Positions 1,405-63,953 of a DNA stretch of 64,000 nucleotides are shown here, in pieces (positions within the stretch are counted from its first letter, which is position 1; each line of letters opens with the position of its first letter). The notes below the pieces were generated by a model, which saw nothing but the letters and a program-made list of their open reading frames with translations, had not been told where the DNA came from and did no database searches. Position numbers and translations under genes: made by a program. This DNA comes from an uncultured Acidobacteriota bacterium (GTDB lineage Bacteria > Acidobacteriota > Thermoanaerobaculia > UBA5066), in NCBI GenBank assembly GCA_963836285.1, contig CAWIIN010000001.1:353967-417966 (forward strand), in the 5' to 3' direction.

Positions 1405-2960
1405 GACGCGCTCTCCGCCGGGGCGCCGACCGGGGATTCTCCGAACGAGAGAAATGTGAGCCGGCGCTCGGGCGGGAGCCGCTCGAGAAGATCCGGCGGA
1501 CTCGTTTCGCGGCCGGTGAAGCGCGCGGCCTGACCGGCCGCCTGGAGGAGGAGCAGCTTCTGCCCGTCGACGACCCGGCAGCCCGCCTCGCGGGCGGCAC
1601 GCACGAGCTCCGTCCCTTCCGGTCGGTACGGCGCGTCGACGACGAGGACGCCGGACCGGAGGAGCTCCGCCGGACAGGGGACCGGATCTCCCGAACGCAG
1701 CCCGAGCGCCGTGGCGTTCACGATGACGAGCGGCACAGGCCACGTCGCGACAGATTTCCTTGAAAGGAAGAGGGCTCCCGTGGCCCTCGCCAGCTCTTCG
1801 CCACGCTCCGCCGTCCGGTTGGCAACGAGGACCTCCCACCCCTTTCTCAGAAGAATTTCCACCGCGACCCGGGCCGTGCCGCCCGCACCGAGGACCAGAG
1901 CCGGCCCGTGGCCCGCTTCCTCCGAGCGCTCCGGAATCACCCGCTCGAACGCGTCCCGGTCGGTGTTCGCCGAACGGAAGCGCGCGGGGGCGCCGGCGCC
2001 GGAAACGCGGACGAGGGTGTTGACGGCGTTCTCGTCCGCGTCCGCGAGGTGCGCGGCCTCCTGCTTGAACGGGATCGTGACGGAGGCGGCGACGAGCGGC
2101 AGGCCGAGCCGGTCGAGCCCGGCGACGAGGTCCGGAAGCTCTGCGCCGAGCGCGCGAAGGGCGAACGGCACGTAGAGCGAGTCCTGGCCGAGGGCCTCGA
2201 AATTCGCGTTGTGAAGAACGGGTGACAGCGAATGCGACACGCGGTCGCCGAGGAGCGCGAAGAGTCGCGCCACCCGGCGCGGGCGCCCGACGCCGTAGAC
2301 CTCGTCGAGGTCGCGCGCGAGAACCTGCCCAGGCGCGGTCGCGCGCCCCGGGACGAGAGCGCCGAAGGACAGCGCCCCGCCGAGATAGGGGCAGAGGACG
2401 CGCGTCGCGATCCCGGCCTCGCCCATCCCGAAGGCGGTGAGCCGCCCGTCCCGGTGCGTGGACTGCAGTTCGAGGAGCCGCAGGACGTCGGAGACGTCGT
2501 TCGGCGTCGCGACGAGCTTCACAAAGCGCGCGTCCGAAGAGAGCATTCGGGAAACGACGCCGTCCAGGTCGGCAGGGATGCCTTCAGGGTCATGGAGAGA
2601 AGAGATTCTCTTGGAGAGGGGTATGGCGGCGAGGCGCTGCCCGCTGTCCCGGCGAAACTCGACGTCCGCGAAATCGAAGCCGGCCGAGAGGGCACCTTCT
2701 AAGAAATCTCTCTCTTCATCTTCCGTCCCACGAAACGCGCCACCTTCGGGCTTCGACCGCACCGTCGCGATGAGCGTTCTCCCCGCGAACGCCGCGCGCA
2801 GCGCGGTGAACGCCGGCGCTTCCGTCATCGCGTCGAGGCGCAGCTCCACCGCGGCGCCCGGAGGCAGGGTCGCGGCTTCCTCCGCCGCGGCGAAGGCCTC
2901 GGCGTTCGTCGCGGGGGCGACGGAGGCGACGAGAAGCGTCTTCTCGGCGGTCAGGTCCAA
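1401..2960 (-). CDS. aroDE: bifunctional type I 3-dehydroquinate dehydratase / shikimate 5-dehydrogenase (AroD–AroE fusion)
   Basis: The N-terminal half has type I DHQase motifs (VELRLD, IATVRSKPEGG, VKLVATP, FGMGEAGIATRVL). The C-terminal half has AroE motifs (SLSPVLHNANFEALG, LVLGAGGTARAV). Confidence 0.85.
   Translation of the reverse strand: MDLTAEKTLLVASVAPATNAEAFAAAEEAATLPPGAAVELRLDAMTEAPAFTALRAAFAGRTLIATVRSKPEGGAFRGTEDEERDFLEGALSAGFDFADVEFRRDSGQRLAAIPLSKRISSLHDPEGIPADLDGVVSRMLSSDARFVKLVATPNDVSDVLRLLELQSTHRDGRLTAFGMGEAGIATRVLCPYLGGALSFGALVPGRATAPGQVLARDLDEVYGVGRPRRVARLFALLGDRVSHSLSPVLHNANFEALGQDSLYVPFALRALGAELPDLVAGLDRLGLPLVAASVTIPFKQEAAHLADADENAVNTLVRVSGAGAPARFRSANTDRDAFERVIPERSEEAGHGPALVLGAGGTARVAVEILLRKGWEVLVANRTAERGEELARATGALFLSRKSVATWPVPLVIVNATALGLRSGDPVPCPAELLRSGVLVVDAPYRPEGTELVRAAREAGCRVVDGQKLLLLQAAGQAARFTGRETSPPDLLERLPPERRLTFLSFGESPVGAPAESAS
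2694..2725 (-). repeat. solo copy of the dispersed AT-rich repeat, in-frame inside aroDE (encodes ..EDEERDFLEG..). A related copy at 2594–2619 encodes SKRISSLHD.
   Basis: Contains GATTTCTTAGAAGGTG with a rare TTA codon. It is a local GC drop in an otherwise ~70% GC gene. Confidence 0.6.
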
Positions 2961-3136: not shown

Positions 3137-4642
3137 TCAAGCCTTCCTCTTCCAGCGGACGCCCTGGGGCGTGTCCTCGAGGACGATGCCCTTGCCGGCG
3201 AGCTCGTCCCGGATCGCATCGGCGGCCTTGAAATCCCGGGCCTTCTTGGCGGCTTTCCGGGCCTCGATGCGCTCCAGGATCCACGGTCCGTCGGAAGGAG
3301 GAGAGGAGCAAGACTCGGAGGAGGATTTCTTCGAAGGTGAAGACGGCTGGGCGCTGGCGGCCGTGCCCAGCATGACGCCGAAGATGTCGCCCGCGACGCC
3401 GCGGAGGAGGCCGCGGGCGGCGGACGCATCCGCCGCGCTGAGGCGGCCGGCCTCGAGGTCCACGTTCGTCGCCTTCACGAACGAGAACAGCGCCCCGAGG
3501 GCGCCGGCGGTGTTGAGGTCGTCTTCGAGGGCCGAGAAAACCGCGGTGCGCGCCGCCGCAACCCGTCCCGCGAATCCCCCTCCCGCGCCCTCTTCACCAT
3601 TCGAAGAAATCCTCTTCTCTTCCGTCTCCTCTTCTCTCTCTCGCTCCGAAAGCCTGAGATCCAGCGAATCCAGCCGCTCGAGCGCCGACGCCGCGCCCCT
3701 GAGCCCCTCGAACGTGAAGTTGAGCTTCTGGCGGTACGGAACGGACTGGAAGAGATAGCGGATCGCGCGGGGCGTGTAGCCCTTTTCGACGAGTGCCGGC
3801 AGCGTGAAGAAATTGCCCTTGCTCTTCGACATCTTCTCGCCGTCCACGATCAGGTGCTCGGCGTGGAGCCAGGTCCTCACGAAGGGCTTCCCCGTCGCGC
3901 CCTCGCTCTGGGCGATCTCGTTCTCGTGGTGCGGGAAGATGTTGTCAACGGCGCCGGTGTGAATGTCGAAGGTCTCGCCGAGGTACTTCATCGACATCGC
4001 GCTGCACTCGAGGTGCCAGCCCGGCCGACCGCGCCCGAGCTCGGTCGTCCAGGTCGCGGACGCGGGCTCGCCTTCCTTGGCCGCCTTCCACACGGCGAAG
4101 TCCCGGACGTCCTCCTTCTCGTACTCGTCGTCGGCGACCCGGGCGCCGCGCTTGACGGCCGTCAGGTCGATCTTCGAGAGCTTCCCGTAGCCGGGGAACG
4201 TCGCGATGCGGAACCAGAAGGAGCCCTCGCTCTCGTACGTGTGGCCGCGCGCGGCGAGCTTCTTCACGATCTCGACCATCTCGGGGATGTGGTCGGTCGC
4301 GCGCGGGTACGCCGCCGCCGGATGGACGCCGAGCGCGTTCAGATCCTCGAAGAAGGTCGCGACGTGCGGCTCCGTGAACTCCCGGAGCGGAAGGCCGGCC
4401 GCGACCGCGCCACGGATCGTCTTGTCGTCGATGTCCGTCAGGTTCATGACCTGCCTGACCTCGTAGCCGAGCGCACGCAGGACGCGACACAGGACGTCCT
4501 CCCACACGAACGTCCGGAGGTTTCCGATGTGGACGCGGTCGTAGACCGTCGGGCCGCACGTATAGAGGCCGACCTTCCCCGGCACGAGCGGCCGAAACTC
4601 CTCCAGCGACCGGGTCAGCGTGTTGTGGAGGCGGAGCGGCAC
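3137..4642 (-). CDS. cysS: cysteine--tRNA ligase
   Basis: HIGH-type class I motifs (CGPTVYDRVHIGN) and KMSKS. The N-terminus MPLRLHNTLTRS from a GTG at 4642 matches CysS starts. The ORF-table start at 4744 is probably an over-extension. The C-terminal region is longer than usual. Confidence 0.9.
   Translation of the reverse strand: MPLRLHNTLTRSLEEFRPLVPGKVGLYTCGPTVYDRVHIGNLRTFVWEDVLCRVLRALGYEVRQVMNLTDIDDKTIRGAVAAGLPLREFTEPHVATFFEDLNALGVHPAAAYPRATDHIPEMVEIVKKLAARGHTYESEGSFWFRIATFPGYGKLSKIDLTAVKRGARVADDEYEKEDVRDFAVWKAAKEGEPASATWTTELGRGRPGWHLECSAMSMKYLGETFDIHTGAVDNIFPHHENEIAQSEGATGKPFVRTWLHAEHLIVDGEKMSKSKGNFFTLPALVEKGYTPRAIRYLFQSVPYRQKLNFTFEGLRGAASALERLDSLDLRLSEREREEETEEKRISSNGEEGAGGGFAGRVAAARTAVFSALEDDLNTAGALGALFSFVKATNVDLEAGRLSAADASAARGLLRGVAGDIFGVMLGTAASAQPSSPSKKSSSESCSSPPSDGPWILERIEARKAAKKARDFKAADAIRDELAGKGIVLEDTPQGVRWKRKA
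3595..3642 (-). repeat. solo copy of the dispersed repeat in-frame inside cysS (encodes SEREREEETEEKRISSNGEEG, a roughly 20-aa insertion relative to E. coli CysS between LERL and DDxFNT)
   Basis: GAGAAGAGGATTTCTTCGAATGGTGAAGAGGG preceded by a polypurine run. It is a low-GC island. Confidence 0.6.
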
Positions 4643-8954: not shown

Positions 8955-9347
8955 ATGACCGGAATTCCGAACACCATGGCGGGGCGGAAGGTCCTCGTCG
9001 TCGACGACGAGCCGTACATCCTGAAGATCCTCTCCTTCAAGCTGCGGCTCACGGGGCTGGATCCGATGGAGGCCTCGAGCGGCGAGGACGCGCTCCGGCT
9101 CGTTCGGGAAGCGGGGCCCGACCTCGTCCTTCTCGACGTCTCGCTCACCCCCGGCCTGACGGGATTCGACGTCTGCCGGATCCTCAAGGAGAACCCGGGC
9201 ACGACGCGGATCCCGGTCATCATGCTCACCGCGCGCACGCTGCCCGCCGAGCGCGACCTCGGCCTGCGCCTCGGCGCGACGAGCTACGTCACGAAGCCGT
9301 TCTCGACGAAGGTCCTCGTTCAGGAGATCGAGAAGGCGCTCAGTTAG
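8955..9347 (+). CDS. stand-alone receiver-domain response regulator (CheY-like)
   Basis: VLVVDDEPYI...DLVLLDV...TKPF. The start may be the ATG at 8976. Confidence 0.8.
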   Translation: MTGIPNTMAGRKVLVVDDEPYILKILSFKLRLTGLDPMEASSGEDALRLVREAGPDLVLLDVSLTPGLTGFDVCRILKENPGTTRIPVIMLTARTLPAERDLGLRLGATSYVTKPFSTKVLVQEIEKALS

Positions 9348-9370
9348 CGCCGCGCGAAGCGCGGCGCTGA
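9348..9370 (+). terminator. GC hairpin (AGCGCCGCG-cgaag-CGCGGCGCT) immediately after the receiver gene stop
   Basis: Perfect 9-bp stem read in the sequence. Confidence 0.5.
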
Positions 9371-9408
9371 GGGGAGAGAAGAGAAGTTTCTTAGAAGGTC
9401 ATAGGGCC
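9371..9408 (+). repeat. dispersed repeat, F-orientation copy (GGGGAGAGAAGAGAAGTTTCTTAGAAGGTCATAGGGCC)
   Basis: Polypurine arm plus TTTCTTAGAAGGT core. It is paired with an inverted copy at 9487–9534. Confidence 0.7.
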
Positions 9409-9455
9409 GGAGGCCAGGCCGCGACGACTGGCCGACGGCGCGCGCCCGCCTCGCC

Positions 9456-9495
9456 GCAAAAGGAAGAGGCCCCGGTCTCCCGGGGCCCCTCTTCA
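9456..9495 (-). terminator. intrinsic terminator of rplQ / alpha operon (stem GAAGAGGGGCCCCGG / CCGGGGCCTCTTC followed by CTTTTG on the minus strand)
   Basis: Hairpin plus T-tract 45 nt downstream of the rplQ stop. Confidence 0.65.
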
Positions 9496-9534
9496 CCTTC
9501 TAAGAAAATCCTCTTCTTCGTGCTCTTCGGACCC
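9487..9534 (-). repeat. dispersed repeat, inverted copy (CCCTCTTCACCTTCTAAGAAAATCCTCTTCTTCGTGCTCTTCGGACCC)
   Basis: It is the reverse complement of the F core. Its GTGCTCTTCGGAC tail recurs at 56641 and 63941. Confidence 0.7.
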
Positions 9535-9540
9535 TGCCGA

Positions 9541-10176
9541 CTAGCTCCCGACCTTCCGGTGGCCGCCGCCGTGGGTGCCGCCGCCCTTCGGGCCGCCGCC
9601 GCCCTTCGGGCCCTTGATCTTCGCGGGCTTCGGCTTCTCGACGGGCTTGGCCTTCTTCTCGGCTTCGCCCTCGCCGCCCTCGGCCTTCTTCTCGTCCTTC
9701 TCGCCCTTCTCCTCGCCGCCCTTGCCGCCGACGAGCTTCTTCGCCCTCTCGAGGAGAGAGGTCTTCTTCTCCTCGGCCGCCTTCGCGGCAACCTTCTTCT
9801 CGGCCTGGCGCTGCGCGAAATCGAAGTCGATGAACTCGAGGATCGCCATCTCGGCGCCGTCACCGGGACGGCGGCCGAGCTTGAGGATCCGGGTGTAGCC
9901 GCCGGCGCGCTCCTTGAAGCGCGGGGCGATGTCCTCGAAGAGCTTCTTGACCGTGACGGCCTCGGGGATCGTCTTCAGGGCGAGCCGGCGCGCGTGGAGG
10001 CCGCCCCGCTTCCCGAGCGTGACCATCTTCTCGATGAGCGGCCGGAGGTCCTTCGCCTTCGGGAGCGTGGTCTGGATCCGTTCGTGCGTGATGAGGGACG
10101 AAAGCTGGTTCCGGAACAGCGACTTGCGGTGCGCCGTCGTCCGGCCGAGCTTGCGGCCCGCGCGGTTGTGCTGCAT
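9541..10176 (-). CDS. rplQ: 50S ribosomal protein L17 with a roughly 85-aa Lys/Glu/Gly-rich C-terminal extension
   Basis: N-terminus [24 protein letters not shown]. The tail is ...[38 protein letters not shown]. Confidence 0.9.
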
Positions 10177-11932: not shown

Positions 11933-11979
11933 AAATCCCGGGTGGAAAAGACCGGGGATTTCCTAGAAGGTAAGAGGGG
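11933..11979 (+). repeat. hairpin (AAATCCCGG...CCGGGGATTT) fused to an F-type repeat copy (GGGGATTTCCTAGAAGGTAAGAGGGG) in the rpsK–rpsD spacer
   Basis: Read in the sequence. It is paired with an inverted copy at 12033–12059. Confidence 0.6.
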
Positions 11980-12032
11980 CAACGCCCCCCACGATGCGCG
12001 GCCGGAGCCGGGTGGCGCCGGCGCTGCGGCCG

Positions 12033-12059
12033 CATTCTTCACACTCGAAGAAAGAACGG
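12033..12059 (-). repeat. dispersed repeat, inverted variant (CATTCTTCACACTCGAAGAAAGAACGG)
   Basis: CTCGAAGAAA variant of the core. The same variant is seen at 16968, 36148 and 3601. Confidence 0.55.
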
Positions 12060-16661: not shown

Positions 16662-17012
16662 TTACGCCCCCTCGACGATTTCGACGAGGTGGCGGACCTT
16701 GTGGATCTGGCCGCGGAGGGCCGGGGTGTCCGGGCGGACGACCTCCTGCCGGATGCGGCGGAGGCCGAGGCCGAACAGCGTCTGCTTCTGGTCGACGGGC
16801 GCGCAGATGCCCGACTTCACCTGGCGAATGCGGACAGTTCCGGATGATTTCTGCTTCGGAGCGGCCGCCTTCGCGGCCGCCGGGGGCTGCTTAGAAGGCG
16901 CGTGAGAGGCGCTCGCGGCCGCTTCGCCACCGCCGCGAGGCTTCGCACCTGCAGCCTGCTCGGGACCACTCGAAGAAATCTTCTCTTTCTCTTTCTTCTT
17001 CTCTTCAGTCAT
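16662..17012 (-). CDS. rpmD: 50S ribosomal protein L30 with a roughly 55-aa low-complexity N-terminal extension
   Basis: L30 core TVRIRQVKSGIC...LGLRRI. The ATG overlaps the rpsE stop (TGATG). The first 15 codons ([16 protein letters not shown]) are encoded by a repeat copy. Confidence 0.8.
   Translation of the reverse strand: MTEEKKKEKEKISSSGPEQAAGAKPRGGGEAAASASHAPSKQPPAAAKAAAPKQKSSGTVRIRQVKSGICAPVDQKQTLFGLGLRRIRQEVVRPDTPALRGQIHKVRHLVEIVEGA
16964..17012 (-). repeat. dispersed repeat copy supplying the 5' end and start codon of rpmD (ATGACTGAAGAGAAGAAGAAAGAGAAAGAGAAGATTTCTTCGAGTGGTCCC on the minus strand). A partial copy lies at 16886–16900.
   Basis: Polypurine arm plus GATTTCTTCGAGTGG core. 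It is a low-GC island. Confidence 0.6.
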
Positions 17013-20921: not shown

Positions 20922-21410
20922 CTACTTCTTCTTGCTCTTCTTCGGGGCCGCGGACTTGACCTTCGAGGGTCCGGCCGTCTTGCCCTTCGGTCCCGCGGAT
21001 TTCTTAGAAGGTGAATGGGCCCTCGCCGCCGCGCCCGCCGTCTTCTTCCCCGTGGCCTTCGCGGCCGCCGCGCGCTTCTTGGCGCCCTTGCCGCTGGCCG
21101 CCGTCGCGCCGGCATGGCCCTTCGGCTTCGGCGTGGCCGCGCTCTTCTCATTCGCAGAACTCTTCTCTTCGCGCCCCTCGGTCTGCGCCGGCGTGACCTC
21201 GTGCGCCGCCGCCGCCGCCGTCTCCGCGGCTCCCATGTGCTGCGCGGTCTTGAGGCGGGCGATGTCCTTGCGGAGCTGCTTGATCTTCATGGGGTTCTCG
21301 AGCTGGCCCGTCGCCTTCTGGAGGCGCAGGGTGAAGAGGGACTGCGTCCACTCCTTCACCTTCGCGGCCTTCTCGTCGGGGGACCAGTCGAGCATCGCCT
21401 GGATCTTCAT
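20922..21410 (-). CDS. rpmC: 50S ribosomal protein L29 with a roughly 100-aa Lys/Ala-rich C-terminal extension
   Basis: L29 core [14 protein letters not shown]...[10 protein letters not shown]. The tail is ...[19 protein letters not shown]...KSKKK and contains a repeat copy at 20995–21019. Confidence 0.85.
20995..21019 (+). repeat. solo repeat copy (GCGGATTTCTTAGAAGGTGAATGGG) in-frame in the rpmC tail (encodes HSPSKKS)
   Basis: Core motif read in the sequence. Confidence 0.55.
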
Positions 21411-26358: not shown

Positions 26359-26407
26359 TTTTTCCTGCCCCGAGCGTCGCCTGTCGCGCCCCGGCAAGGC
26401 CACGCCG

Positions 26408-26432
26408 CTTTCTTCTTAGAAGGTGAAGAGGG
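26408..26432 (+). repeat. dispersed repeat F copy (CTTTCTTCTTAGAAGGTGAAGAGGG) in the S10 leader / tuf–rpsJ spacer
   Basis: It is paired with an inverted variant at 26474–26503. Confidence 0.65.
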
Positions 26433-26473
26433 CGGCGGGCCCGTCGGTGCATTTCAGGTCAGCGTGTCGTTGC

Positions 26474-26503
26474 GTTCTCTCTTTCAGAAGAAAATCCGAA
26501 AAC
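26474..26503 (-). repeat. dispersed repeat, inverted variant (GTTCTCTCTTTCAGAAGAAAATCCGAAAACC)
   Basis: Its reverse complement, GGATTTTCTTCTGAAAGAGAGAAC, matches the F consensus. Confidence 0.6.
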
Positions 26504-27727: not shown

Positions 27728-27756
27728 CTGTCTCTCCTTCGCTCCTGGCGGCTTTC

Positions 27757-29833
<2,077 letters not shown>

Positions 29834-30528: not shown

Positions 30529-30903
30529 TCAGGCCTTCGGGCGCTTTGCGCCGTACTTGCTGCGCGACTGCTTGCGGTTCGCGACACCGACGGCGTCGAG
30601 CGTGCCGCGGATGATGTGGTACCGCACGCCCGGGAGGTCCTTCACGCGGCCCCCGCGGATCATGACGATCGAGTGCTCCTGGAGGTTGTGCCCGATGCCG
30701 GGGATGTAGGTCGTGACCTCGATGCCGTTCGTGAGGCGCACGCGTGCGATCTTCCGGAGGGCCGAGTTCGGCTTCTTCGGAGTCGTCGTCTTCACCTGGG
30801 TGCACACTCCGCGGCGCTGCGGGCAGGACTGCAGGGCGGGCGACTTCGTCTTGTAACGGACGGCTTCGCGGCCCTTTCTCACGAGCTGGCTGATCGTCGG
30901 CAT
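30529..30903 (-). CDS. rpsL: 30S ribosomal protein S12
   Basis: [12 protein letters not shown]... (start trimmed); [10 protein letters not shown] motif. Confidence 0.95.
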
Positions 30904-31105
30904 GGGACTTTCGAGACTCCTTCGGAACGCGTGACGAGTCGGATTCCGGTGACGTACGTTCGATCGAGGCGACAACCGACCGCCGAGCGGCCGTTTCCCG
31001 GGCGCGACACGACGCATGGCGCCGGGCCGGTCCCCGGGGAAACCTGCGGATCATAAAGATGCCCCGGATGGCTGTCAAGCGCAGGCCCTCCCAGGGAAGC
31101 CCGTT

Positions 31106-33040: not shown

Positions 33041-33963
33041 CGAGGGTCCCCCAAAAGCGCTCGATCATACAGGGGGGCGTCCTCGCCCCGCGCGAGCGCG
33101 GTTCGAACGCGCCGGACGATGCGGTACACCTCCGGGCGCCCGATCTTCACGCCCGGGCCCCTCTCCTCGACCCTCGCGAGCGTCGCCCACGCGAGCGCGA
33201 CCGGGAGCGCCGTGAACTCCACGATCCCGGCGGTGGCGCCCGCCGCGCGGAGGGTGTCGATGTACTCCCCCGCGACGCCCAGGTCGCGGCGGGCAAGGGC
33301 GAAGACGTCCCCGCGCGGGACGCCGGCCGGCAGGTAGCGCCGTCCCTCGGCCGCGTCCTCGTCGGAGTCTTTCAGGATGTTGACGAGCTGGAGCGCCTCC
33401 CCGAACGCCCGAGCCCGGGAGCGGAGGTCCATGGCCACGGTTCGAAGAGAAGATTCTTCGAGTAGGAAGAGCTCCGTGAGCAGCTCTCCCACGATCCCTG
33501 CCACCGTGTAGCAGTAGGCCTTGAGGTCGTCGAGAGTGTCGAGGACGAGGCCCCCGTCACCGGTTCTTGCGACGAACCGCGCCATCCCTTCCGCCGATCG
33601 GACCACGTGGCTTCGGAGGATCGCCGCCCCTTCGGGCCGCAGCGCGGCGAACGCCTCGAAGACGAACGGCGTCTCGGAGATGAGCTCGCGGTAACCCGCG
33701 TGGCGCGAAACGCCGGCCTGCGTCCAGACCTGCCCGAGCCGCTCCGCCTCCGTCCGTGTCCCGTTCTTCAGAAGAAATCTGAAATCTCCCAGCGCCGCGA
33801 TGCGGGCCGCGGGGGGCCAGTGCGTCGCGTCCTCGAACGTGTCGGCGATGCGGAAGAGGAGGTACGCGACGGCGACCTCCCGCCGCGTCGGCTCGGGGAG
33901 CGGAGGGATCGAGAGGGCGAACGTGCGACTCGTCTTCTCGAGGAGGTCGAGGAGCTCGGGCAC
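33037..33963 (-). CDS. squalene/phytoene synthase family protein (HpnD/HpnC/CrtB-like)
   Basis: YCYTVAGIVGELLT and LQLVNILKDSDEDAAEGRRYLP (DxxxD regions). The GTG start at 33963 is chosen to avoid overlap with the divergent gene. It overlaps the dxs start by 4 nt. It contains a repeat copy at 33764–33788. Confidence 0.75.
   Translation of the reverse strand: MPELLDLLEKTSRTFALSIPPLPEPTRREVAVAYLLFRIADTFEDATHWPPAARIAALGDFRFLLKNGTRTEAERLGQVWTQAGVSRHAGYRELISETPFVFEAFAALRPEGAAILRSHVVRSAEGMARFVARTGDGGLVLDTLDDLKAYCYTVAGIVGELLTELFLLEESSLRTVAMDLRSRARAFGEALQLVNILKDSDEDAAEGRRYLPAGVPRGDVFALARRDLGVAGEYIDTLRAAGATAGIVEFTALPVALAWATLARVEERGPGVKIGRPEVYRIVRRVRTALARGEDAPLYDRALLGDPR
33764..33788 (-). repeat. solo repeat copy in-frame in the squalene-synthase-family gene (minus strand GGAGATTTCAGATTTCTTCTGAAGAAC, encodes GDFRFLLKN)
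   Basis: GATTTCTTCTGAAGAA variant of the core. Confidence 0.5.
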
Positions 33964-34048: not shown

Positions 34049-35803
34049 ATGAAAAGAGGCGCGCTCGCGGTCGCGGCACTGGCCGCGCTTGCTCTCTGTC
34101 CCTCCGCGGCCCCCGCAGCCGCTGCCCACGACGGCCCGGCGGCTCCTCTCCGATTTGCGATCTCCTTTCCGAAGGACCGCAGCGCCGTCCCCCTCGACGG
34201 ACGCATCCTCCTCGTCGTCTCGAAGGACGGCTCCGAGGAGCCCCGCATGCAGGTCGGGATCGGCCTCGACACGCAGCAGATCTTCGGGATCGACGTGAAC
34301 GCCCTCGCTCCCGGCGCCGAGGCGATTCTCGACGCGACGGTCCTCGGGTATCCGCTCGAGACGCTCGCGGCGATCCCGAAGGGTTCGTACTTCGTGCAGG
34401 CCGTCCTGCACCGGTACGAGACCTTCCATCGTACGGACGGTCACACCGTCAAGCTGCCGATGGACCGAGGCGAGGGCCAGCACTGGAACCTCGCGCCGGG
34501 GAACCTCGTGAGCACGCCGCGGAAAATCGACGTCGACCCGGCCCGAAACGAAACGATCCGGGTCTCCCTGGACCGTGTCCTGCCGCCGATCCCGGAGCCG
34601 AAGACGACGAAATTCGTCCGGCACGAGCGCATCCGCAGCGAGAGGCTCTCGAAGTTCTGGGGCCGCGACATGTTCCTCGGTGCGCACGTCCTCCTTCCGC
34701 TCGGATACGACGAGCACCCGGGCGCCCGATACCCGTTCGTCATCTTCCACGGGCATTTCCCGGAGACGATCGAGGGCTTTCGCGAGGAGCCGCCCGACCC
34801 GGACCTGAAGCCGAAGTACAGCGAGAGGTTCCACGTCCCGGGCTACAACCGAATCGAGCAGGAACAGGCGTACCAGCTCTACAGGGACTGGACGTCGCCC
34901 GGCTTCCCCCGCGCGATCGTCGTCGAGATCCAGCACGCGAACCCCTACTACGACGACTCCTACGCCGTGAACTCCGAAAACCTGGGCCCCTACGGCGACG
35001 CGATCGAGTACGAGCTCATCCCGTACCTCGAGAAGAAGTACCGCGCGATCGGCGCCGGGTGGGCGCGCTTCGCGTACGGCGGCTCGACCGGCGGATGGGA
35101 GGCGATGGCGGTCCAGGTCTTCTATCCCGACGACTACAACGGCATCTACGCCGCCTGCCCCGATCCAATCGACTTCCGGGCCTACACCGTCGTCGACATC
35201 TACAAGGACCGAAATGCCTACGACGACGACGCGCCCTGGAAAAGGATCCCGCGCCCCGGGCACCGCGACTCCTTCGGGCGCATCTCGGCCACCGTGCAGG
35301 ACATGAACCGCCTCGAGCTCGTCCTCGGGACGAACGGCCGCTCCGGCGAGCAGTGGGACATCTGGCAGGCCGTCTATTCGCCCGTGGGCGCCGACGGCTA
35401 CCCGAAGCCGATCTGGGACCAGAAGACCGGTGTCATCGACAAGGACGTGGCGGCGTACTGGAGGGATCACTTTGACCTGACGGCCATCCTGAAGAGGGAC
35501 TGGGAGAAGGGCCTCGGGAAAAAGCTCGAGGGCAAGCTCAACATCTTCGTCGGCGAGGCGGACAGCTACTTCCTGAACAACGCCGTCGTCCTCGCCGAGG
35601 AGACCCTGAAGTCCGTGAAGAACCCGCCGTCCGGCGCGTTCGTGGACTACGAGCCGCGCGCCGAGCACTGCTGGAACGGGGACCACACGCGCCCGAACGC
35701 GATCTCGCGCCTGAGGTACCACCAGATGTTCCTGCCGCGGATCGTCGAGCGGATCCGGAAAACGGCGCCGCCCGGGGCGGACCTCAAGAGCTGGGACTAC
35801 TGA
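34049..35803 (+). CDS. secreted alpha/beta-hydrolase (putative esterase family) protein
   Basis: Signal peptide [26 protein letters not shown]. GxSxG-type elbow FAYGGSTGGWEAMA. Confidence 0.65.
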   Translation: MKRGALAVAALAALALCPSAAPAAAAHDGPAAPLRFAISFPKDRSAVPLDGRILLVVSKDGSEEPRMQVGIGLDTQQIFGIDVNALAPGAEAILDATVLGYPLETLAAIPKGSYFVQAVLHRYETFHRTDGHTVKLPMDRGEGQHWNLAPGNLVSTPRKIDVDPARNETIRVSLDRVLPPIPEPKTTKFVRHERIRSERLSKFWGRDMFLGAHVLLPLGYDEHPGARYPFVIFHGHFPETIEGFREEPPDPDLKPKYSERFHVPGYNRIEQEQAYQLYRDWTSPGFPRAIVVEIQHANPYYDDSYAVNSENLGPYGDAIEYELIPYLEKKYRAIGAGWARFAYGGSTGGWEAMAVQVFYPDDYNGIYAACPDPIDFRAYTVVDIYKDRNAYDDDAPWKRIPRPGHRDSFGRISATVQDMNRLELVLGTNGRSGEQWDIWQAVYSPVGADGYPKPIWDQKTGVIDKDVAAYWRDHFDLTAILKRDWEKGLGKKLEGKLNIFVGEADSYFLNNAVVLAEETLKSVKNPPSGAFVDYEPRAEHCWNGDHTRPNAISRLRYHQMFLPRIVERIRKTAPPGADLKSWDY

Positions 35804-36003
35804 GGTCCTTCTTCAAGGGAGGGAGTCCCCGACTCCCCCCTTTGGATCCCCCCGTATGGGCAGTGCCGGCAGCCCGATCCGCAGCAGCTGCCGTAGCGCA
35901 GGAGATACGTCGTCGTGAAGACCTCGTAGCCGGTCTTCGGGTCGATGTACGTGTCCTTCCCCTCGGCGAGCGCCTTCGCGTGCAGCCGGTCGATCTCGTC
36001 CAC
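35797..36003 (-). CDS. small Cys-rich protein (DUF5522-like; CCGSGCRHCPY motif)
   Basis: 68 aa with YGSCCGSGCRHCPYG. It converges on the esterase gene with a 7-nt overlap. Confidence 0.6.
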   Translation of the reverse strand: MDEIDRLHAKALAEGKDTYIDPKTGYEVFTTTYLLRYGSCCGSGCRHCPYGGIQRGESGTPSLEEGPQ

Positions 36004-36067: not shown

Positions 36068-36096
36068 GAAGATTTTCTTAGAAAGTAATAGGGCTG
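36068..36096 (+). repeat. dispersed repeat F copy (GAAGATTTTCTTAGAAAGTAATAGGGCTGG) preceded by a polypurine run
   Basis: It is paired with 36148–36170. Confidence 0.65.
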
Positions 36097-36147: not shown

Positions 36148-36196
36148 CCACTCGAAGAAAAGGGGGATCCAAAGGGGGGAGCCGCAGGCTCCCCCC
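36148..36196 (-). terminator. rpoC intrinsic terminator (GGGGGGAGCC-tgc-GGCTCCCCCC then a T-rich run) whose T-tract merges into an inverted repeat copy (CCACTCGAAGAAAAGGGGGATCC)
   Basis: 10-bp GC stem read in the sequence 20 nt after the rpoC stop. Confidence 0.7.
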
Positions 36197-36214
36197 TATG
36201 CAGAATCCTCGTTC

Positions 36215-44769: not shown

Positions 44770-44824
44770 GAAAAGAAGGAGAGGGAAACGAGAGGGAAGA
44801 GAAAATCTGCTTAGAAGGGGTCAC
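44770..44824 (+). repeat. dispersed repeat F copy with a 40-nt polypurine arm (…GAGGGAAGAGAAAATCTGCTTAGAAGGGGTCAC) in the rplL–rpoB spacer
   Basis: It is paired with 44875–44908. Confidence 0.6.
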
Positions 44825-44874
44825 AGCCGCGCCGTCTCCCCTTTCGAGCTGCGCCCGCCCGGGGCTCCGCCGGG

Positions 44875-44908
44875 GCTCTTCTCTTTTTTCCTTCTAAGAG
44901 AATCCCCC
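44875..44908 (-). repeat. dispersed repeat, inverted copy (GCTCTTCTCTTTTTTCCTTCTAAGAGAATCCCCC)
   Basis: CCTTCTAAGA core plus a polypyrimidine arm. Confidence 0.6.
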
Positions 44909-48064: not shown

Positions 48065-48142
48065 TGGCAGGGGTGCGGGGATTCGAACCCCGAACCTACG
48101 GTTTTGGAGACCGCCGCTCTAGCCAGTTGGAGCTACACCCCT
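48065..48142 (-). tRNA. tRNA-Trp (anticodon CCA), CCA-encoded
   Basis: Manual fold: AGGGGTG acceptor, anticodon loop CUCCAAA. Confidence 0.9.
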
Positions 48143-48175
48143 GTGCGTCGTCGCGGGAAAACAAGCTGCGTGAGA

Positions 48176-48250
48176 TGGAGCGGGAGACGGGATTCGAACC
48201 CGCGACCAACAGCTTGGAAGGCTGTGACTCTACCCCTGAGTTACTCCCGC
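48176..48250 (-). tRNA. tRNA-Gly (anticodon TCC)
   Basis: GCGGGAG acceptor, anticodon loop CUUCCAA, GGTTCGAATCC T-loop. Confidence 0.88.
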
Positions 48251-48316
48251 TCAAGAGAGCGACCGGTGCGGAGAAGGCTCGGGAGAACCCGACCCCCGGG
48301 CTCTCCTGATGATAAA

Positions 48317-48392
48317 TGGAGCCCACGAGCAGATTTGAACTGCTGACCCCGTCCTTACCAAGGACGTGCTCTACCAACTGAGCTACGTGGGC
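48317..48392 (-). tRNA. tRNA-Thr (anticodon GGT)
   Basis: GCCCACG acceptor, anticodon loop UUGGUAA. Confidence 0.88.
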
Positions 48393-48438
48393 AGGATCGA
48401 GCCTCAGTGGGGGGGTCCGGGGGGATAGTACCCCCGGG

Positions 48439-48459
48439 AAAAAATCAGCCGGCAGCTGA
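48439..48459 (-). terminator. intrinsic terminator after tRNA-Tyr (UCAGCUGCCGGCUGA + UUUUUU on the minus strand)
   Basis: Hairpin plus a 6-T run read in the sequence. Confidence 0.6.
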
Positions 48460-48484
48460 CCACCATCTTTCGCTCCGCGAAAGA

Positions 48485-48572
48485 TGGTGGGCAGAGAGGG
48501 ATTCGAACCCCCGTAGCACGTCAGTGCGGCAGATTTACAGTCTGCTGCCATTAACCACTCGGCCATCTGCCC
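48485..48572 (-). tRNA. tRNA-Tyr (anticodon GTA), long variable arm
   Basis: GGGCAGA acceptor, anticodon loop CUGUAAA. Confidence 0.88.
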
Positions 48573-48618
48573 ATTCCGTCCTTCATCCGTCCCTTGTCCG
48601 GCCCCCGGAGGCTGTTCC

Positions 48619-48694
48619 TGGAGCTGGCGATGGGACTTGAACCCGCAACCTGCCGATTACAAATCGGCTGCTCTGCCAATTGAGCTACGCCAGC
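48619..48694 (-). tRNA. tRNA-Thr (anticodon TGT)
   Basis: GCTGGCG acceptor, anticodon loop UUUGUAA. Confidence 0.88.
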
Positions 48695-55845: not shown

Positions 55846-56495
55846 TCCTCAAGGTCGGACTCACGGGCGGTCTCGCGTCGGGCAAGAGCACGATCGCCGC
55901 GGGTCTCGTGAGACGCGGGATCCCCGTGCGCGACGCGGACCGGATCGTCCACGAGCTCTACGCGCCGGGCGCCGCGGGCGCGCGCGCGATCGCCGCGGCG
56001 TTCGGGCCGGACTTCCTCTCCGCGGACGGGTCCGTCGACCGGCGCAAGCTCTCCCTGCGCGCGTTCCACGACAAGGAAGCGCTCGCGAAGCTGAATGGGC
56101 TCATCCACCCGCTCGTTCGCGAGGAGCAGGCGCGGTGGTTCGAGGCCCTCGCCCGGAAGGGCGAGCCCCTCGGGGTCATCGAGGCCACGCTCCTCGTCGA
56201 GACCGGCGGCCGCGAGCGCTTCGACGTTCTCGTCGCCGTGTCGGCCCCGGCGGACACGAGGCTGCAGCGCGCGATCAAGCGCAGCGGCGAGACCGACCCG
56301 AACGAGTTCATTCAGCGGATGTCGGCGCAATTCTCCGACGCGGCGCGCGAGGAGGTCTCCGACATCGTGATCCGCACGGACGGCACCCGGGAGGAGCTCG
56401 AGGACAAGATCGACCGCCTCGCCGAGGACCTCCGCGCCCGCGCCGCGGACGCCGGCGCCGGCGGCCGCAGCGGCTTCTTCACCCGGCCGGGGTGA
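55842..56495 (+). CDS. coaE: dephospho-CoA kinase
   Basis: [13 protein letters not shown]-loop; ATGA overlap with the folD stop. Confidence 0.9.
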
Positions 56496-63821: not shown

Positions 63822-63862
63822 AGGAAGAAGAGAAGCGAAGATTTTCTTTGAAGGTGAATGAG
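63821..63862 (+). repeat. dispersed repeat F copy (AAGGAAGAAGAGAAGCGAAGATTTTCTTTGAAGGTGAATGAG) starting at the purB stop
   Basis: It is paired with 63919–63953. A GC hairpin plus TTTTCC (63880–63920) lies between them. Confidence 0.65.
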
Positions 63863-63918
63863 ATCGGGGCCCGCGGCACGGCAATCGCCGAGCGGCGCCG
63901 CCCGCGCCGAGCCCTTTT

Positions 63919-63953
63919 CCCCCTCAAAGAAATCGCTCTGGTGCTCTTCGGAC
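63919..63953 (-). repeat. dispersed repeat, inverted copy (CCCCCTCAAAGAAATCGCTCTGGTGCTCTTCGGAC)
   Basis: Reverse complement of the F core plus the GTGCTCTTCGGAC tail. Confidence 0.6.

What the first reader, a model, noticed from the sequence alone, without database searches (positions are those of the whole stretch)
9371..9534. Dispersed AT-shifted repeat family forming inverted pairs around terminators (best example: RR/rplQ convergent terminator region)
A motif with consensus roughly (polypurine run)-GATTTTCTTAGAAGGTGAAGAGGG occurs at least 25 times in 64 kb of ~70% GC DNA. In seven intergenic regions it occurs as an inverted pair, F copy then 45–90 nt of non-conserved GC-rich spacer containing a terminator hairpin then a reverse-complement copy. 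The pairs are at 9371/9487, 11955/12033, 26408/26474, 36068/36148, 44770/44875, 56495/56620 and 63821/63919. The two arms are mutually complementary, so the transcript can fold into a very long stem enclosing the terminator. Because the pair is symmetric, it reads identically for genes arriving from either strand. All pairs sit at operon ends or classical attenuator positions (rplL–rpoB, tuf–S10 leader, rpsK–rpsD, after rpoC, after purB). Three explanations fit: an RPE/MITE-like mobile palindromic element, a DNA-uptake-signal-like sequence (the Neisseria DUS also forms inverted-pair terminators), or a protein/RNA recognition site for termination or processing.
Basis: seen in the sequence. Interest (0 to 1): 0.85.

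Follow-up and report, generated by a model that had tools for sequence, protein, structure and literature searches.

The report
Paired inward-facing repeat arms, clade-wide
A group of uncultured soil Acidobacteriota carries hundreds of copies of a ~45-base signal that nearly always sits as two inward-facing copies bracketing 30-270 bases of ordinary DNA, mostly at gene ends but also written into essential genes; nothing like it was found in Rfam or in three literature searches, and its function is unknown.

Summary
The unit is an asymmetric arm: a polypurine run followed by GGATTTCTTAGAAGGTGAAGAGGG. A 26-nt weight matrix finds 21 arms in the window and 370 arms in 722 kb from about 25 Thermoanaerobaculia species, against 1 in shuffled DNA. 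Away from the matches used to fetch the loci, there is one arm per 3.6 kb.

Arms form inward-facing pairs: 132 pairs lie within 300 nt, against 12 in the opposite arrangement. The DNA between the arms is locus-specific.

Some of these arose without any length change, against codon bias. The pairing rule still holds inside genes.

Arms sit at the same positions in related species. Whole elements come and go without target-site duplications. Two sister lineages have none.

No covariation links the two arms, and no RNA-type wobble asymmetry is seen. Spacers are not unusually structured, and none was inverted between species.

This argues against a MITE/RPE, a REPIN, an inverton, or an RNA helix selected only for pairing. 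My best reading (confidence 0.4) is a paired duplex-DNA recognition signal that evolves in place. It is distributed like REP/BIME and evolves like an uptake sequence. Its function is unknown.

The parts
9370..9407 (+). Left arm of the flagged element: polypurine run 9370-9386, then core TTTCTTAGAAGGTCATAGGG. It begins 23 nt after the TAG stop (9345-9347) of the response-regulator gene.
   Evidence: PWM 27.7 bits; conserved at the orthologous site in L032
9408..9486 (.). Locus-specific GC-rich spacer. It holds a hairpin GGCCCCGG-TCTC-CCGGGGCC at 9468-9487, whose stem extends into the right arm (GAAGAGG / CCTCTTC).
   Evidence: Only this hairpin is shared with the L032 ortholog. It is not called a terminator by the consensus scan.
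9487..9529 (-). Right arm: consensus core GATTTTCTTAGAAGGTGAAGAGGG on the - strand (9487-9512), plus a polypurine run on that strand up to about 9529. It lies 12 nt beyond the rplQ stop (9541-9543).
   Evidence: exact 24-mer; PWM 44.5 bits
1750..1858 (.). Pair inside the NADP-binding (shikimate dehydrogenase) domain of AroD-AroE: arms 1750-1775 (+) and 1833-1858 (-).
   Evidence: 18.8 and 18.1 bits; Pfam domains; no indel versus the motif-free orthologs L112 and L114
2602..2711 (.). Pair inside the type I dehydroquinase domain of AroD-AroE: arms 2602-2627 (+) and 2686-2711 (-).
   Evidence: 10.7 and 11.4 bits; encodes EDEERDFLEG where the outgroups have TADAAALLAA, at the same length
3321..3614 (.). 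Pair inside CysS that brackets the DALR domain: arms 3321-3346 (+) and 3589-3614 (-).
   Evidence: 37.0 and 27.5 bits; peptides ..EEKRISSNGEEG.. and ..SSPSKKSSS..; present in CysS orthologs down to about 78% identity and absent from the P0098-P0114 group (the P0089 lineage carries its own arms); Pfam
11954..12058 (.). Pair between rpsK and rpsD: arms 11954-11979 (+) and 12033-12058 (-).
   Evidence: 29.2 and 13.0 bits; the whole ~175-nt block is absent from the relative L032 (88.5% identical over the aligned stretches), and no target-site duplication is seen
16882..16983 (.). Degenerate pair forming most of the 59-aa N-terminal extension of L30 ([16 protein letters not shown]...).
   Evidence: 5.4 and 3.7 bits; the L30 Pfam domain covers only residues 60-110
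20995..21165 (.). Pair inside the Lys/Ala-rich C-terminal extension of L29: arms 20995-21020 (+) and 21140-21165 (-).
   Evidence: 35.0 and 17.7 bits; translation; the L29 domain covers only residues 10-58 of 162
26407..26498 (.). Pair between tuf and rpsJ: strong arm 26407-26432 (+) and degenerate arm 26472-26498 (-).
   Evidence: 33.7 and 4.2 bits
36069..36170 (.). Element downstream of rpoC: strong arm 36069-36094 (+). The partner near 36148-36170 is recognisable by eye only (CCACTCGAAGAAAAGG).
   Evidence: 34.1 bits; sequence. The only terminator-like hairpin here (36059-36040, - strand) lies outside the element.
44802..44906 (.). Pair between rplL and rpoB: arms 44802-44827 (+) and 44881-44906 (-).
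   Evidence: 12.7 and 30.8 bits
56542..56637 (.). Pair after the + strand gene that ends at 56495, preceded by a 50-nt polypurine run.
   Evidence: 16.5 and 10.3 bits; sequence
63838..63937 (.).
   Evidence: 37.8 and 25.7 bits; conserved at the orthologous site in L013
33448..33473 (+). Weak arm. A possible partner near 33756-33780 was seen by eye only.
   Evidence: 8.2 bits; sequence
27748..27773 (+). Partial solo arm at the fusA-tuf junction. Its TAA on the - strand is the fusA stop codon.
   Evidence: 3.6 bits; sequence

Best explanation
This is a clade-specific dispersed repeat. Its unit is an asymmetric arm of about 45 bp: a polypurine run plus GGATTTCTTAGAAGGTGAAGAGGG. Arms occur almost always as two inward-facing copies that bracket 30-270 bp of locus-specific DNA.

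Shown:
- Each arm is held close to one family consensus, independently of its partner.
- Arms are kept at the same genomic position across species.
- Arms lie mainly just after stop codons, but also inside genes.
- Inside genes they are written in by substitution or by short in-frame indels, against codon bias and at the cost of amino-acid changes.
- Arms are gained and lost without target-site duplications and without carrying a common interior.

Inferred:
- Each arm is a duplex-DNA recognition site for one sequence-specific factor that works on two convergently oriented sites. That logic resembles a transposase, RAYT or receptor recognising two ends.
- The arms persist and spread by selection, or by short-patch copying or drive, rather than by transposition of a whole element.
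- Because most pairs sit at cistron or transcription-unit ends, the most likely role is a boundary element of the REP/BIME kind (protein binding, topology, transcript-end effects).

The function itself was not demonstrated.
For: **Over-representation.** There are 370 PWM hits in 722 kb against 1 in shuffles. Outside the retrieving elements there is 1 arm per 3.6 kb.

**Fixed relative orientation.** 132 inward-facing pairs lie within 300 nt, against 12 in the opposite arrangement and 14 and 20 in tandem. Half of the strong 'solo' arms have a degenerate partner in the expected place, against 2 of 56 in the control position. In stringent coding context, 25 of 34 arms have a partner and 0 of 34 do in the mirror control.

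**Independent matching to the consensus.** No position shows more arm-to-arm agreement than shuffled partners give. Transition spectra are identical in the 5' and 3' arms of 86 oriented pairs (odds ratio 1.02, p = 0.93).

**Spacers.** They are locus-specific and no more structured than shuffles.

**Constraint at the nucleotide level.** Third-codon A/T is 51% inside arms and 11% outside. 196 of 242 arms are conserved at the orthologous position in another species. Arm identity is 82-83%, against 72-75% for flanks and 67% for spacers.

**Origin in place.** The AroD-AroE arms have no indel against motif-free orthologs. In the L113 CysS, FRGRVEE has been overwritten to FSLKVEE with four A/T-ending codons.

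**Clade limits.** About 90 of the 111 exact-match loci are Thermoanaerobaculia/Acidobacteriota MAGs. Sister lineages L112 and L114 show 0 hits in 34 kb.

**Location.** Among intergenic pairs, 29 are between tandem genes, 16 between convergent genes and only 3 between divergent genes.
Against: - No cognate protein was identified.
- Core information is about 33 bits by my own sum of the per-position values. That is far more than the ~13 bits needed to specify ~1000 sites, which points to templated copying or common descent rather than simple binding-site selection.
- The spacing shows no helical phasing, so no fixed protein-protein geometry is visible.
- The arms do fold into a long stem in silico, so an RNA or single-stranded-DNA hairpin of fixed sequence cannot be excluded.
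- Gene orientation in the wobble test rests on a crude GC3-based gene caller.
- The locus set was retrieved by exact motif matches. This inflates the conservation figures for arms.
Confidence: 0.4

Rival explanations
1. RNA-level element. In any transcript the 5' purine-rich arm pairs with the 3' pyrimidine-rich arm, forming a 25-40-bp stem that brackets the spacer. The stem would act as a 3' exonuclease barrier, an RNase III or Mini-III substrate, or a termination or attenuation bracket, as described for REP, ERIC and Correia elements.
For: - The arms pair in the minimum-free-energy fold on both strands (z = -4.3 and -4.4).
- Pairs sit just after stop codons and between cistrons, and are rare in divergent promoter regions.
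- The symmetry suits convergent genes.
- The duplex would contain ACCU/AGGU. From memory, this is the Mini-III cleavage tetranucleotide.
Against: - There is no covariation between arms.
- There is no G-U-compatible asymmetry between the 5' and 3' arms.
- Spacers are not structured and canonical terminators are not enriched.
- After rplQ, a strong hairpin with a T-rich tail lies between the arms. If it terminates transcription, the transcript would end before the second arm.
- Pairs inside essential genes would place long stems within translated mRNA.
Confidence: 0.2
2. DNA uptake signal, like the Neisseria DUS or the Pasteurellaceae USS. A competence receptor would prefer DNA carrying the arm, and uptake plus recombination would drive the motif into the genome by substitution, coding regions included.
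For: - Arms originate by substitution inside genes, with amino-acid changes and rare codons.
- The motif is clade-specific and shared by many species.
- The density of 1 per 3.6 kb is comparable.
- Inverted pairs occur at gene 3' ends, as for DUS (from memory).
- A ComEA-like protein with two HHH_3 domains exists in the clade.
Against: - A drive on single sites predicts many solo copies in either orientation. Here about 75-85% of arms are paired in one fixed arrangement, even inside genes.
- The motif is much longer than known uptake cores.
- ComEA-type proteins are widespread (from memory) and say little.
- Competence is unknown for this clade.
Confidence: 0.15
3. An old non-autonomous mobile element (MITE, RPE-like or REPIN-like). 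The arms would be terminal inverted repeats and the interiors would have decayed. In-frame copies would be RPE-style insertions.
For: - The pair has the architecture of inverted termini.
- Whole elements, or one arm plus the spacer, are present or absent between close relatives.
- In L29 and L30, whole elements are read in frame as extensions.
- In CysS, each arm adds 10-17 residues relative to the outgroups.
- Information content is far above what a binding site needs (my sum).
Against: - No two elements in any genome share a spacer. Only orthologs match.
- No target-site duplication is seen at five filled/empty comparisons.
- Conservation fades gradually on the outer side and ends sharply on the inner side. 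This is the reverse of a transposon terminus.
- The interiors in CysS, HemC and AroD-AroE are native protein domains.
- Arms arise without any length change.
Confidence: 0.1
4. Invertible DNA segments (invertons). The arms would be recombinase sites and the spacer would flip.
For: - The elements are inverted repeats with a quasi-palindromic TTCTnAGAA centre that flank short segments.
- From memory, intragenic invertons have been reported in other bacteria.
Against: - All 24 orthologous spacer matches have the same orientation as their flanks.
- Many spacers are too short (32-60 bp) for recombinase looping.
- Inversion would destroy CysS, HemC and AroE.
Confidence: 0.03

Closest known systems
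REP / BIME elements of Enterobacteria and Pseudomonads (from memory)
   Same: - A short (35-45 bp) species- or clade-specific repeat at hundreds of sites.
- Roughly one cluster per 7-10 kb.
- Located after stop codons between convergent or tandem genes.
- Arranged in alternating (inverted) orientation.
- Variable presence between relatives.
   Different: - A REP unit is itself a palindrome with a GTAG/CGTC head. The arm here is not self-complementary and has no such head.
- BIME linkers are short and of defined types. Here spacers are 32-270 bp of unique DNA.
- REPs are extragenic by definition. Here arms sit in genes.
- No RAYT gene was found or searched for genome-wide.
REPINs (REP doublets forming hairpins; Bertels and Rainey, from memory)
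   Same: - Two inverted short repeats around a spacer.
- Long persistence at orthologous sites.
   Different: - REPINs replicate as a unit with a characteristic spacing and a related spacer.
- Here spacing is broad and bimodal (40-60 and 80-130 nt).
- Here spacers are unrelated.
DNA uptake sequences (Neisseria DUS, Pasteurellaceae USS; from memory)
   Same: - Shared by a clade.
- About 1 per 1-4 kb.
- Found in coding and non-coding DNA.
- Arise by substitution, with effects on proteins.
- Form inverted pairs at gene ends.
   Different: - Uptake sequences work as single copies.
- Here a partner in fixed orientation is the rule, even inside genes.
- The arm is longer and has a polypurine flank.
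Rickettsia palindromic elements (RPE; from memory)
   Same: - In-frame presence in essential genes.
- Clade-wide conservation at orthologous sites.
- Palindromic ends.
   Different: - RPEs are 100-150-bp insertions alignable over their whole length.
- Here only the arms are shared.
- Here some arms replace native codons without insertion.
HIP1 (GCGATCGC) of cyanobacteria (from memory)
   Same: A genome-wide motif imposed on coding sequence against codon preference and conserved across species.
   Different: - HIP1 is an 8-bp palindrome acting singly.
- Here the signal is a 24-45-bp asymmetric arm in convergent pairs.

Membership tests
REP/BIME | The unit is an imperfect palindrome (stem-loop) of 20-40 bp | tested here: not met
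   The arm has only a 9-bp quasi-palindrome, TTCTnAGAA. Its variable position 5 does not covary with position 3. The rest is purine-rich on one strand.
REP/BIME | Conserved GTAG or CGTC tetranucleotide head | tested here: not met
   The consensus (R)n-GGATTTCTTAGAAGGTGAAGAGGG has no such head. The criterion is taken from the abstract of PMC3733652.
REP/BIME | Strictly extragenic | tested here: not met
   Arms lie inside Pfam domains of AroD-AroE and HemC and around the DALR domain of CysS. 34 arms are in stringent coding context.
REP/BIME | Associated RAYT (Y1 transposase) gene flanked by the repeat | not tested
   Only 8-kb loci were available. The inward-facing pairs more than 300 nt apart enclose ordinary genes.
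REPIN | The doublet replicates as a unit: characteristic spacing and related spacers among copies | tested here: not met
   Gaps run from 32 to 270 nt. Spacer BLAST matches are orthologs only.
MITE | Copies alignable over their full length (common interior) | tested here: not met
MITE | Target-site duplication at insertions | tested here: not met
   None is visible at the filled/empty comparisons.
RPE | A 100-150-bp element inserted in frame, recognisable as a shared peptide module | tested here: not met
   Only the arm peptides recur (..ISLKVN.. / ..SPSKKS..). The interiors are native domains, and some arms have no indel.
DUS/USS | Over-represented clade-specific motif in both coding and non-coding DNA, arising by substitution | tested here: met
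DUS/USS | Single copies in either orientation are the functional and predominant form | tested here: not met
   72% of hits are in inward-facing pairs. The figure is about 85% when degenerate partners are counted. In coding context it is 74-82%.
DUS/USS | Sequence-biased DNA uptake by a competent organism | not testable with these tools
   Only a ComEA-like HHH_3 protein was seen.
Intrinsic terminator | GC-rich hairpin with a short loop followed by a T-tract | tested here: not met
   0 at 9300-9600. Window counts are 14, 16 and 10, against 10.1, 13.5 and 12.6 in shuffles. Spacer folding mean z is -0.2.
Inverton | The segment is found in both orientations | tested here: not met
   24 of 24 orthologous spacers are concordant with their flanks. 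Within-population inversion was not testable.
Structured RNA with a conserved helix | Compensatory or wobble-tolerant changes between the paired arms | tested here: not met
Any Rfam family | A match at gathering score | tested here: not met
   Only five tRNAs were found in the window. Matches at 9300-9600 are below threshold and are terminator-like only.

The most novel reading that the evidence does not exclude
The arms are the cis-signal of an undescribed genome-wide system in a Thermoanaerobaculia clade. A dedicated sequence-specific factor would require two convergent sites. Candidates are a domesticated transposase or nuclease, an uptake or recombination receptor, or a boundary protein. 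Its signal would be actively written into the chromosome, essential protein-coding sequence included, by selection or a short-patch copying drive. This is a mode of repeat evolution that none of the REP, REPIN, MITE, RPE or DUS models covers.
Probability: 0.3. Interest if true: 0.8.

Novelty: new variant of a known kind. Interest (0 to 1): 0.65.

Why it matters
Dispersed short repeats such as REP, DUS/USS, RPE and HIP1 are among the least understood features of bacterial genomes. They are known almost only from cultured Proteobacteria, Rickettsia and cyanobacteria.

This family comes from an uncultured soil lineage and combines properties not reported together in the families I know:
- an obligatory convergent pair;
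- unique interiors;
- conservation of position across species;
- the capacity to overwrite native codons of essential genes.

If a cognate factor exists, it would be a new sequence-specific DNA system, or possibly a dsRNA system.

Practically, the motif is a sharp taxonomic marker for binning. It also explains odd extensions and insertions in annotated proteins of these MAGs (L29, L30, CysS, HemC, ComEA-like).

Tried and rejected
- **Generic repeat finder on the whole window.** It was swamped by GC-rich coding noise and did not recover the family. I replaced it with an nhmmer profile and then a weight matrix.
- **Mobile unit.** All-against-all BLAST of spacers found only orthologs. Inward-facing pairs 300-6000 nt apart enclose ordinary genes, not a transposase.
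- **Helical phasing of arm spacing.** None was found.
- **Spacer as terminator.** Folding against shuffles and consensus terminator scans showed no general signal.
- **Inversion.** 24 of 24 spacers were concordant with their flanks.
- **Arm-to-arm covariation and wobble asymmetry.** Neither was found.
- **Rfam.** There was no family match.
- **Literature.** Searches for Thermoanaerobaculia repeats, uptake sequences in Acidobacteria, and the motif string found nothing relevant.
- **Viral contigs.** There were five exact matches, all in 40-53% GC DNA and without inward-facing pairs. I take these to be chance.
- **rRNA-processing-stem or anti-Shine-Dalgarno mimicry.** This could not be tested, because no rRNA operon lies in any fetched locus.
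- **One script timed out.** It was rerun on the short class only.

Full report

The window is about 68% GC and carries the ribosomal-protein/rpoBC superoperon on the minus strand.

At the flagged site, the response-regulator gene ends at 9345-9347. A polypurine run (9370-9386) leads into TTTCTTAGAAGGTCATAGGG. After 79 nt of unrelated GC-rich DNA, the reverse complement of the consensus GATTTTCTTAGAAGGTGAAGAGGG follows (9487-9512), with its own polypurine run on the other strand. That run ends 12 nt from the rplQ stop.

TTCTTAGAAGG with at most 1 mismatch occurs 14 times, against 0.24 expected.

**2. What the unit is**

About 90 of these come from roughly 25 different Thermoanaerobaculia/Acidobacteriota MAGs. 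The rest are single chance matches in unrelated taxa.

I aligned 200 copies on the core. Conservation rises gradually through about 20 nt of purines. It peaks at GGATTTCTTAGAAGG, continues through TGAAGAGGG, and stops sharply at +19. Nothing is conserved further in.

A 26-nt weight matrix finds 370 arms at >=8 bits in 722 kb, against 1 in block-shuffled DNA. When the element that caused each locus to be fetched is left out, the density is one arm per 3.6 kb.

**3. Pairing is the rule**

Neighbouring arms within 300 nt are inward-facing (3' GGG ends toward each other) 132 times. They are outward-facing 12 times and tandem 14 and 20 times.

Gaps run from 32 to 270 nt, with modes at 40-60 and 80-130 nt. 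There is no 10.5-bp phasing.

Half of the strong unpaired arms have a degenerate partner in the expected place, against 2 of 56 in the mirror control.

Spacers match only their orthologs in other genomes, never other elements. Taken alone, they fold no better than shuffles (mean z -0.2).

**4. Where the pairs are**

By a crude GC3-based gene call, intergenic pairs lie between tandem genes (29) or convergent genes (16), and rarely between divergent genes (3).

The outer polypurine run usually starts right after a stop codon. In ten cases the gene ends at the arm's own TAG or TGA.

In the window:
- Two pairs lie inside the AroD-AroE fusion, within the DHquinase_I and Shikimate_DH domains.
- One pair brackets the DALR domain of CysS.
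- One pair forms the C-terminal extension of L29.
- One pair forms the N-terminal extension of L30.

In five other species, a pair sits in and just after the C-terminal domain of HemC.

Among 34 arms in stringent coding context, 25 have a partner at >=8 bits in the inward-facing position. None has one in the mirror control.

**5. How the arms arise and persist**

- **CysS.** Orthologs down to about 78% identity carry both arm-encoded peptides. The outgroup proteins at 72-74% identity (P0098-P0114) are 10-17 residues shorter at each site and lack them. The P0089 lineage (L113) instead carries arms of its own.
- **AroD-AroE.** The arms have no indel relative to two motif-free orthologs. The native residues were replaced, for example TADAAALLAA by EDEERDFLEG.
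- **L113 CysS.** The native FRGRVEE has become FSLKVEE, using four A/T-ending codons. This gives a 30.8-bit arm.
- **Codon bias.** In confident coding pairs, third positions are 51% A/T inside arms and 11% outside.
- **Stop-codon avoidance.** The central variable base is A in 73% of clearly non-coding arms. It shifts toward C in coding arms, which removes the TAG/TAA.
- **Orthologous conservation.** Across loci at 72-89% nucleotide identity, 196 of 242 arms are at the same position in the other species. Arms are 82-83% identical, against 72-75% for flanks and 67% for spacers. Retrieval by exact motif matches inflates the arm figure.
- **Gain and loss.** A whole element, or one arm plus the spacer, can be present in one species and absent in a close relative. 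An example is rpsK-rpsD in the window against L032. No target-site duplication is seen.
- **Clade limits.** The sister lineages L112 and L114 are syntenic with the window. They have no hit in 34 kb.

**6. DNA or RNA?**

The arms pair in silico on both strands (z = -4.3 and -4.4). Three results argue against an RNA helix as the selected feature:
- Agreement between the two arms of a pair never exceeds what shuffled partners give.
- In 86 pairs of known transcription direction, wobble-compatible and wobble-incompatible transitions are equally frequent in the 5' and 3' arms (odds ratio 1.02, p = 0.93).
- Canonical terminators are not enriched in the 60 kb scanned and are not found at the flagged site.

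After rplQ, a strong hairpin with a T-rich tail lies between the arms. If it terminates transcription, that transcript would not reach the second arm.

Spacer orientation is concordant with the flanks in 24 of 24 orthologous comparisons, so there is no sign of inversion.

Each arm therefore appears to be constrained as a sequence, symmetrically on the two strands, with a fixed convergent arrangement.

**7. Explanation**

The data exclude a unit that transposes as a whole (MITE, RPE, REPIN), an inverton, an ordinary terminator family, and chance.

They leave a signal that is maintained by selection or by some drive and that works as a convergent pair. I rate this reading at 0.4: two duplex-DNA sites for one sequence-specific factor, marking mainly the ends of cistrons and transcription units.

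It resembles REP/BIME in density and location. It resembles DUS/USS or HIP1 in how it evolves.

The rivals are:
- an RNA or single-stranded-DNA stem of fixed sequence (0.2);
- an uptake signal (0.15), which does not explain the obligatory pairing;
- a decayed mobile element (0.1);
- an inverton (0.03).

The core carries about 33 bits by my own sum of the values. That is more than a binding site needs and hints at templated short-patch copying. This is inference only.

The function was not demonstrated.

**8. Novelty**

No Rfam family matches. No paper in the searchable library mentions the motif, or repeats or uptake sequences in this clade. Viral contigs show only chance hits.

I classify it as a new variant of a known kind (dispersed short repeats). 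Three properties are unusual and open to test:
- an obligatory convergent pair;
- unique interiors that include native protein domains;
- overwriting of essential coding sequence.

Noticed in passing
window 35809-35852 and 36162-36205: A second, unrelated inverted repeat: 44 nt, 82% complementary, 309 nt apart. Each arm holds its own G/C hairpin (GGGAGTCCCCGACTCCCC / GGGGGGAGCCGCAGGCTCCCCCC). The arms flank the small ORF 35797-36003 (-) and the repeat element downstream of rpoC (I3).
   Followed up: no
window 20922-21410 (-) and 16662-17012 (-): L29 has a Lys/Ala-rich C-terminal extension of about 100 aa. L30 has a 59-aa N-terminal extension. Both consist of a whole repeat element read in frame. 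The Pfam domains cover only residues 10-58 and 60-110.
   Followed up: partly
any arm, e.g. window 9487-9512: The pyrimidine-strand arm UCACCUUCUAAGAAAUCC resembles the 3' end of 16S rRNA plus its trailer (UCACCUCCUUUCUAAGGA, from memory). The purine-strand arm carries a Shine-Dalgarno-like AAGGUGA just after its UAG. This could not be tested, because no rRNA operon is in any fetched locus.
   Followed up: partly
L009 3-731: A ComEA-like protein with two HHH_3 DNA-binding domains. An arm-encoded SSSPSKKSSSSS linker joins the domains, and a second arm lies near the N-terminus.
   Followed up: partly
L017 about 4465-4486 (ortholog of L022 2039-2135): Where L022 has a full pair, L017 has a 'collapsed' site. 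It consists of a polypurine run, GGAATTTGCTC, and a polypyrimidine run, with no inner cores and no spacer. This suggests that elements can shrink or grow from the centre.
   Followed up: no
window 12073-12033 (-) and 26516-26472 (-): In two places a small hairpin sits immediately upstream of an arm. The arm's own TTTCTT run is then scored as the T-tract of a terminator-like site.
   Followed up: no
window 31078-31050 (-): The best sigma-70-like promoter match in the window (TTGACA-17-TATGAT, 11 of 12). It lies upstream of the ORF I take to be rpsL (30529-31017, -).
   Followed up: no
window 48068-48694 (-): A cluster of five tRNA genes between secE/nusG and the upstream genes. No repeat arms lie among them.
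   Followed up: no
P0067 CysS; L099 HemC region: Arms are sometimes duplicated in tandem. Examples are EKRISSNGEGEKDEEISLKAN in one CysS and two adjacent pyrimidine-strand arms in one HemC. This matches the 14 and 20 close tandem arm pairs.
   Followed up: no
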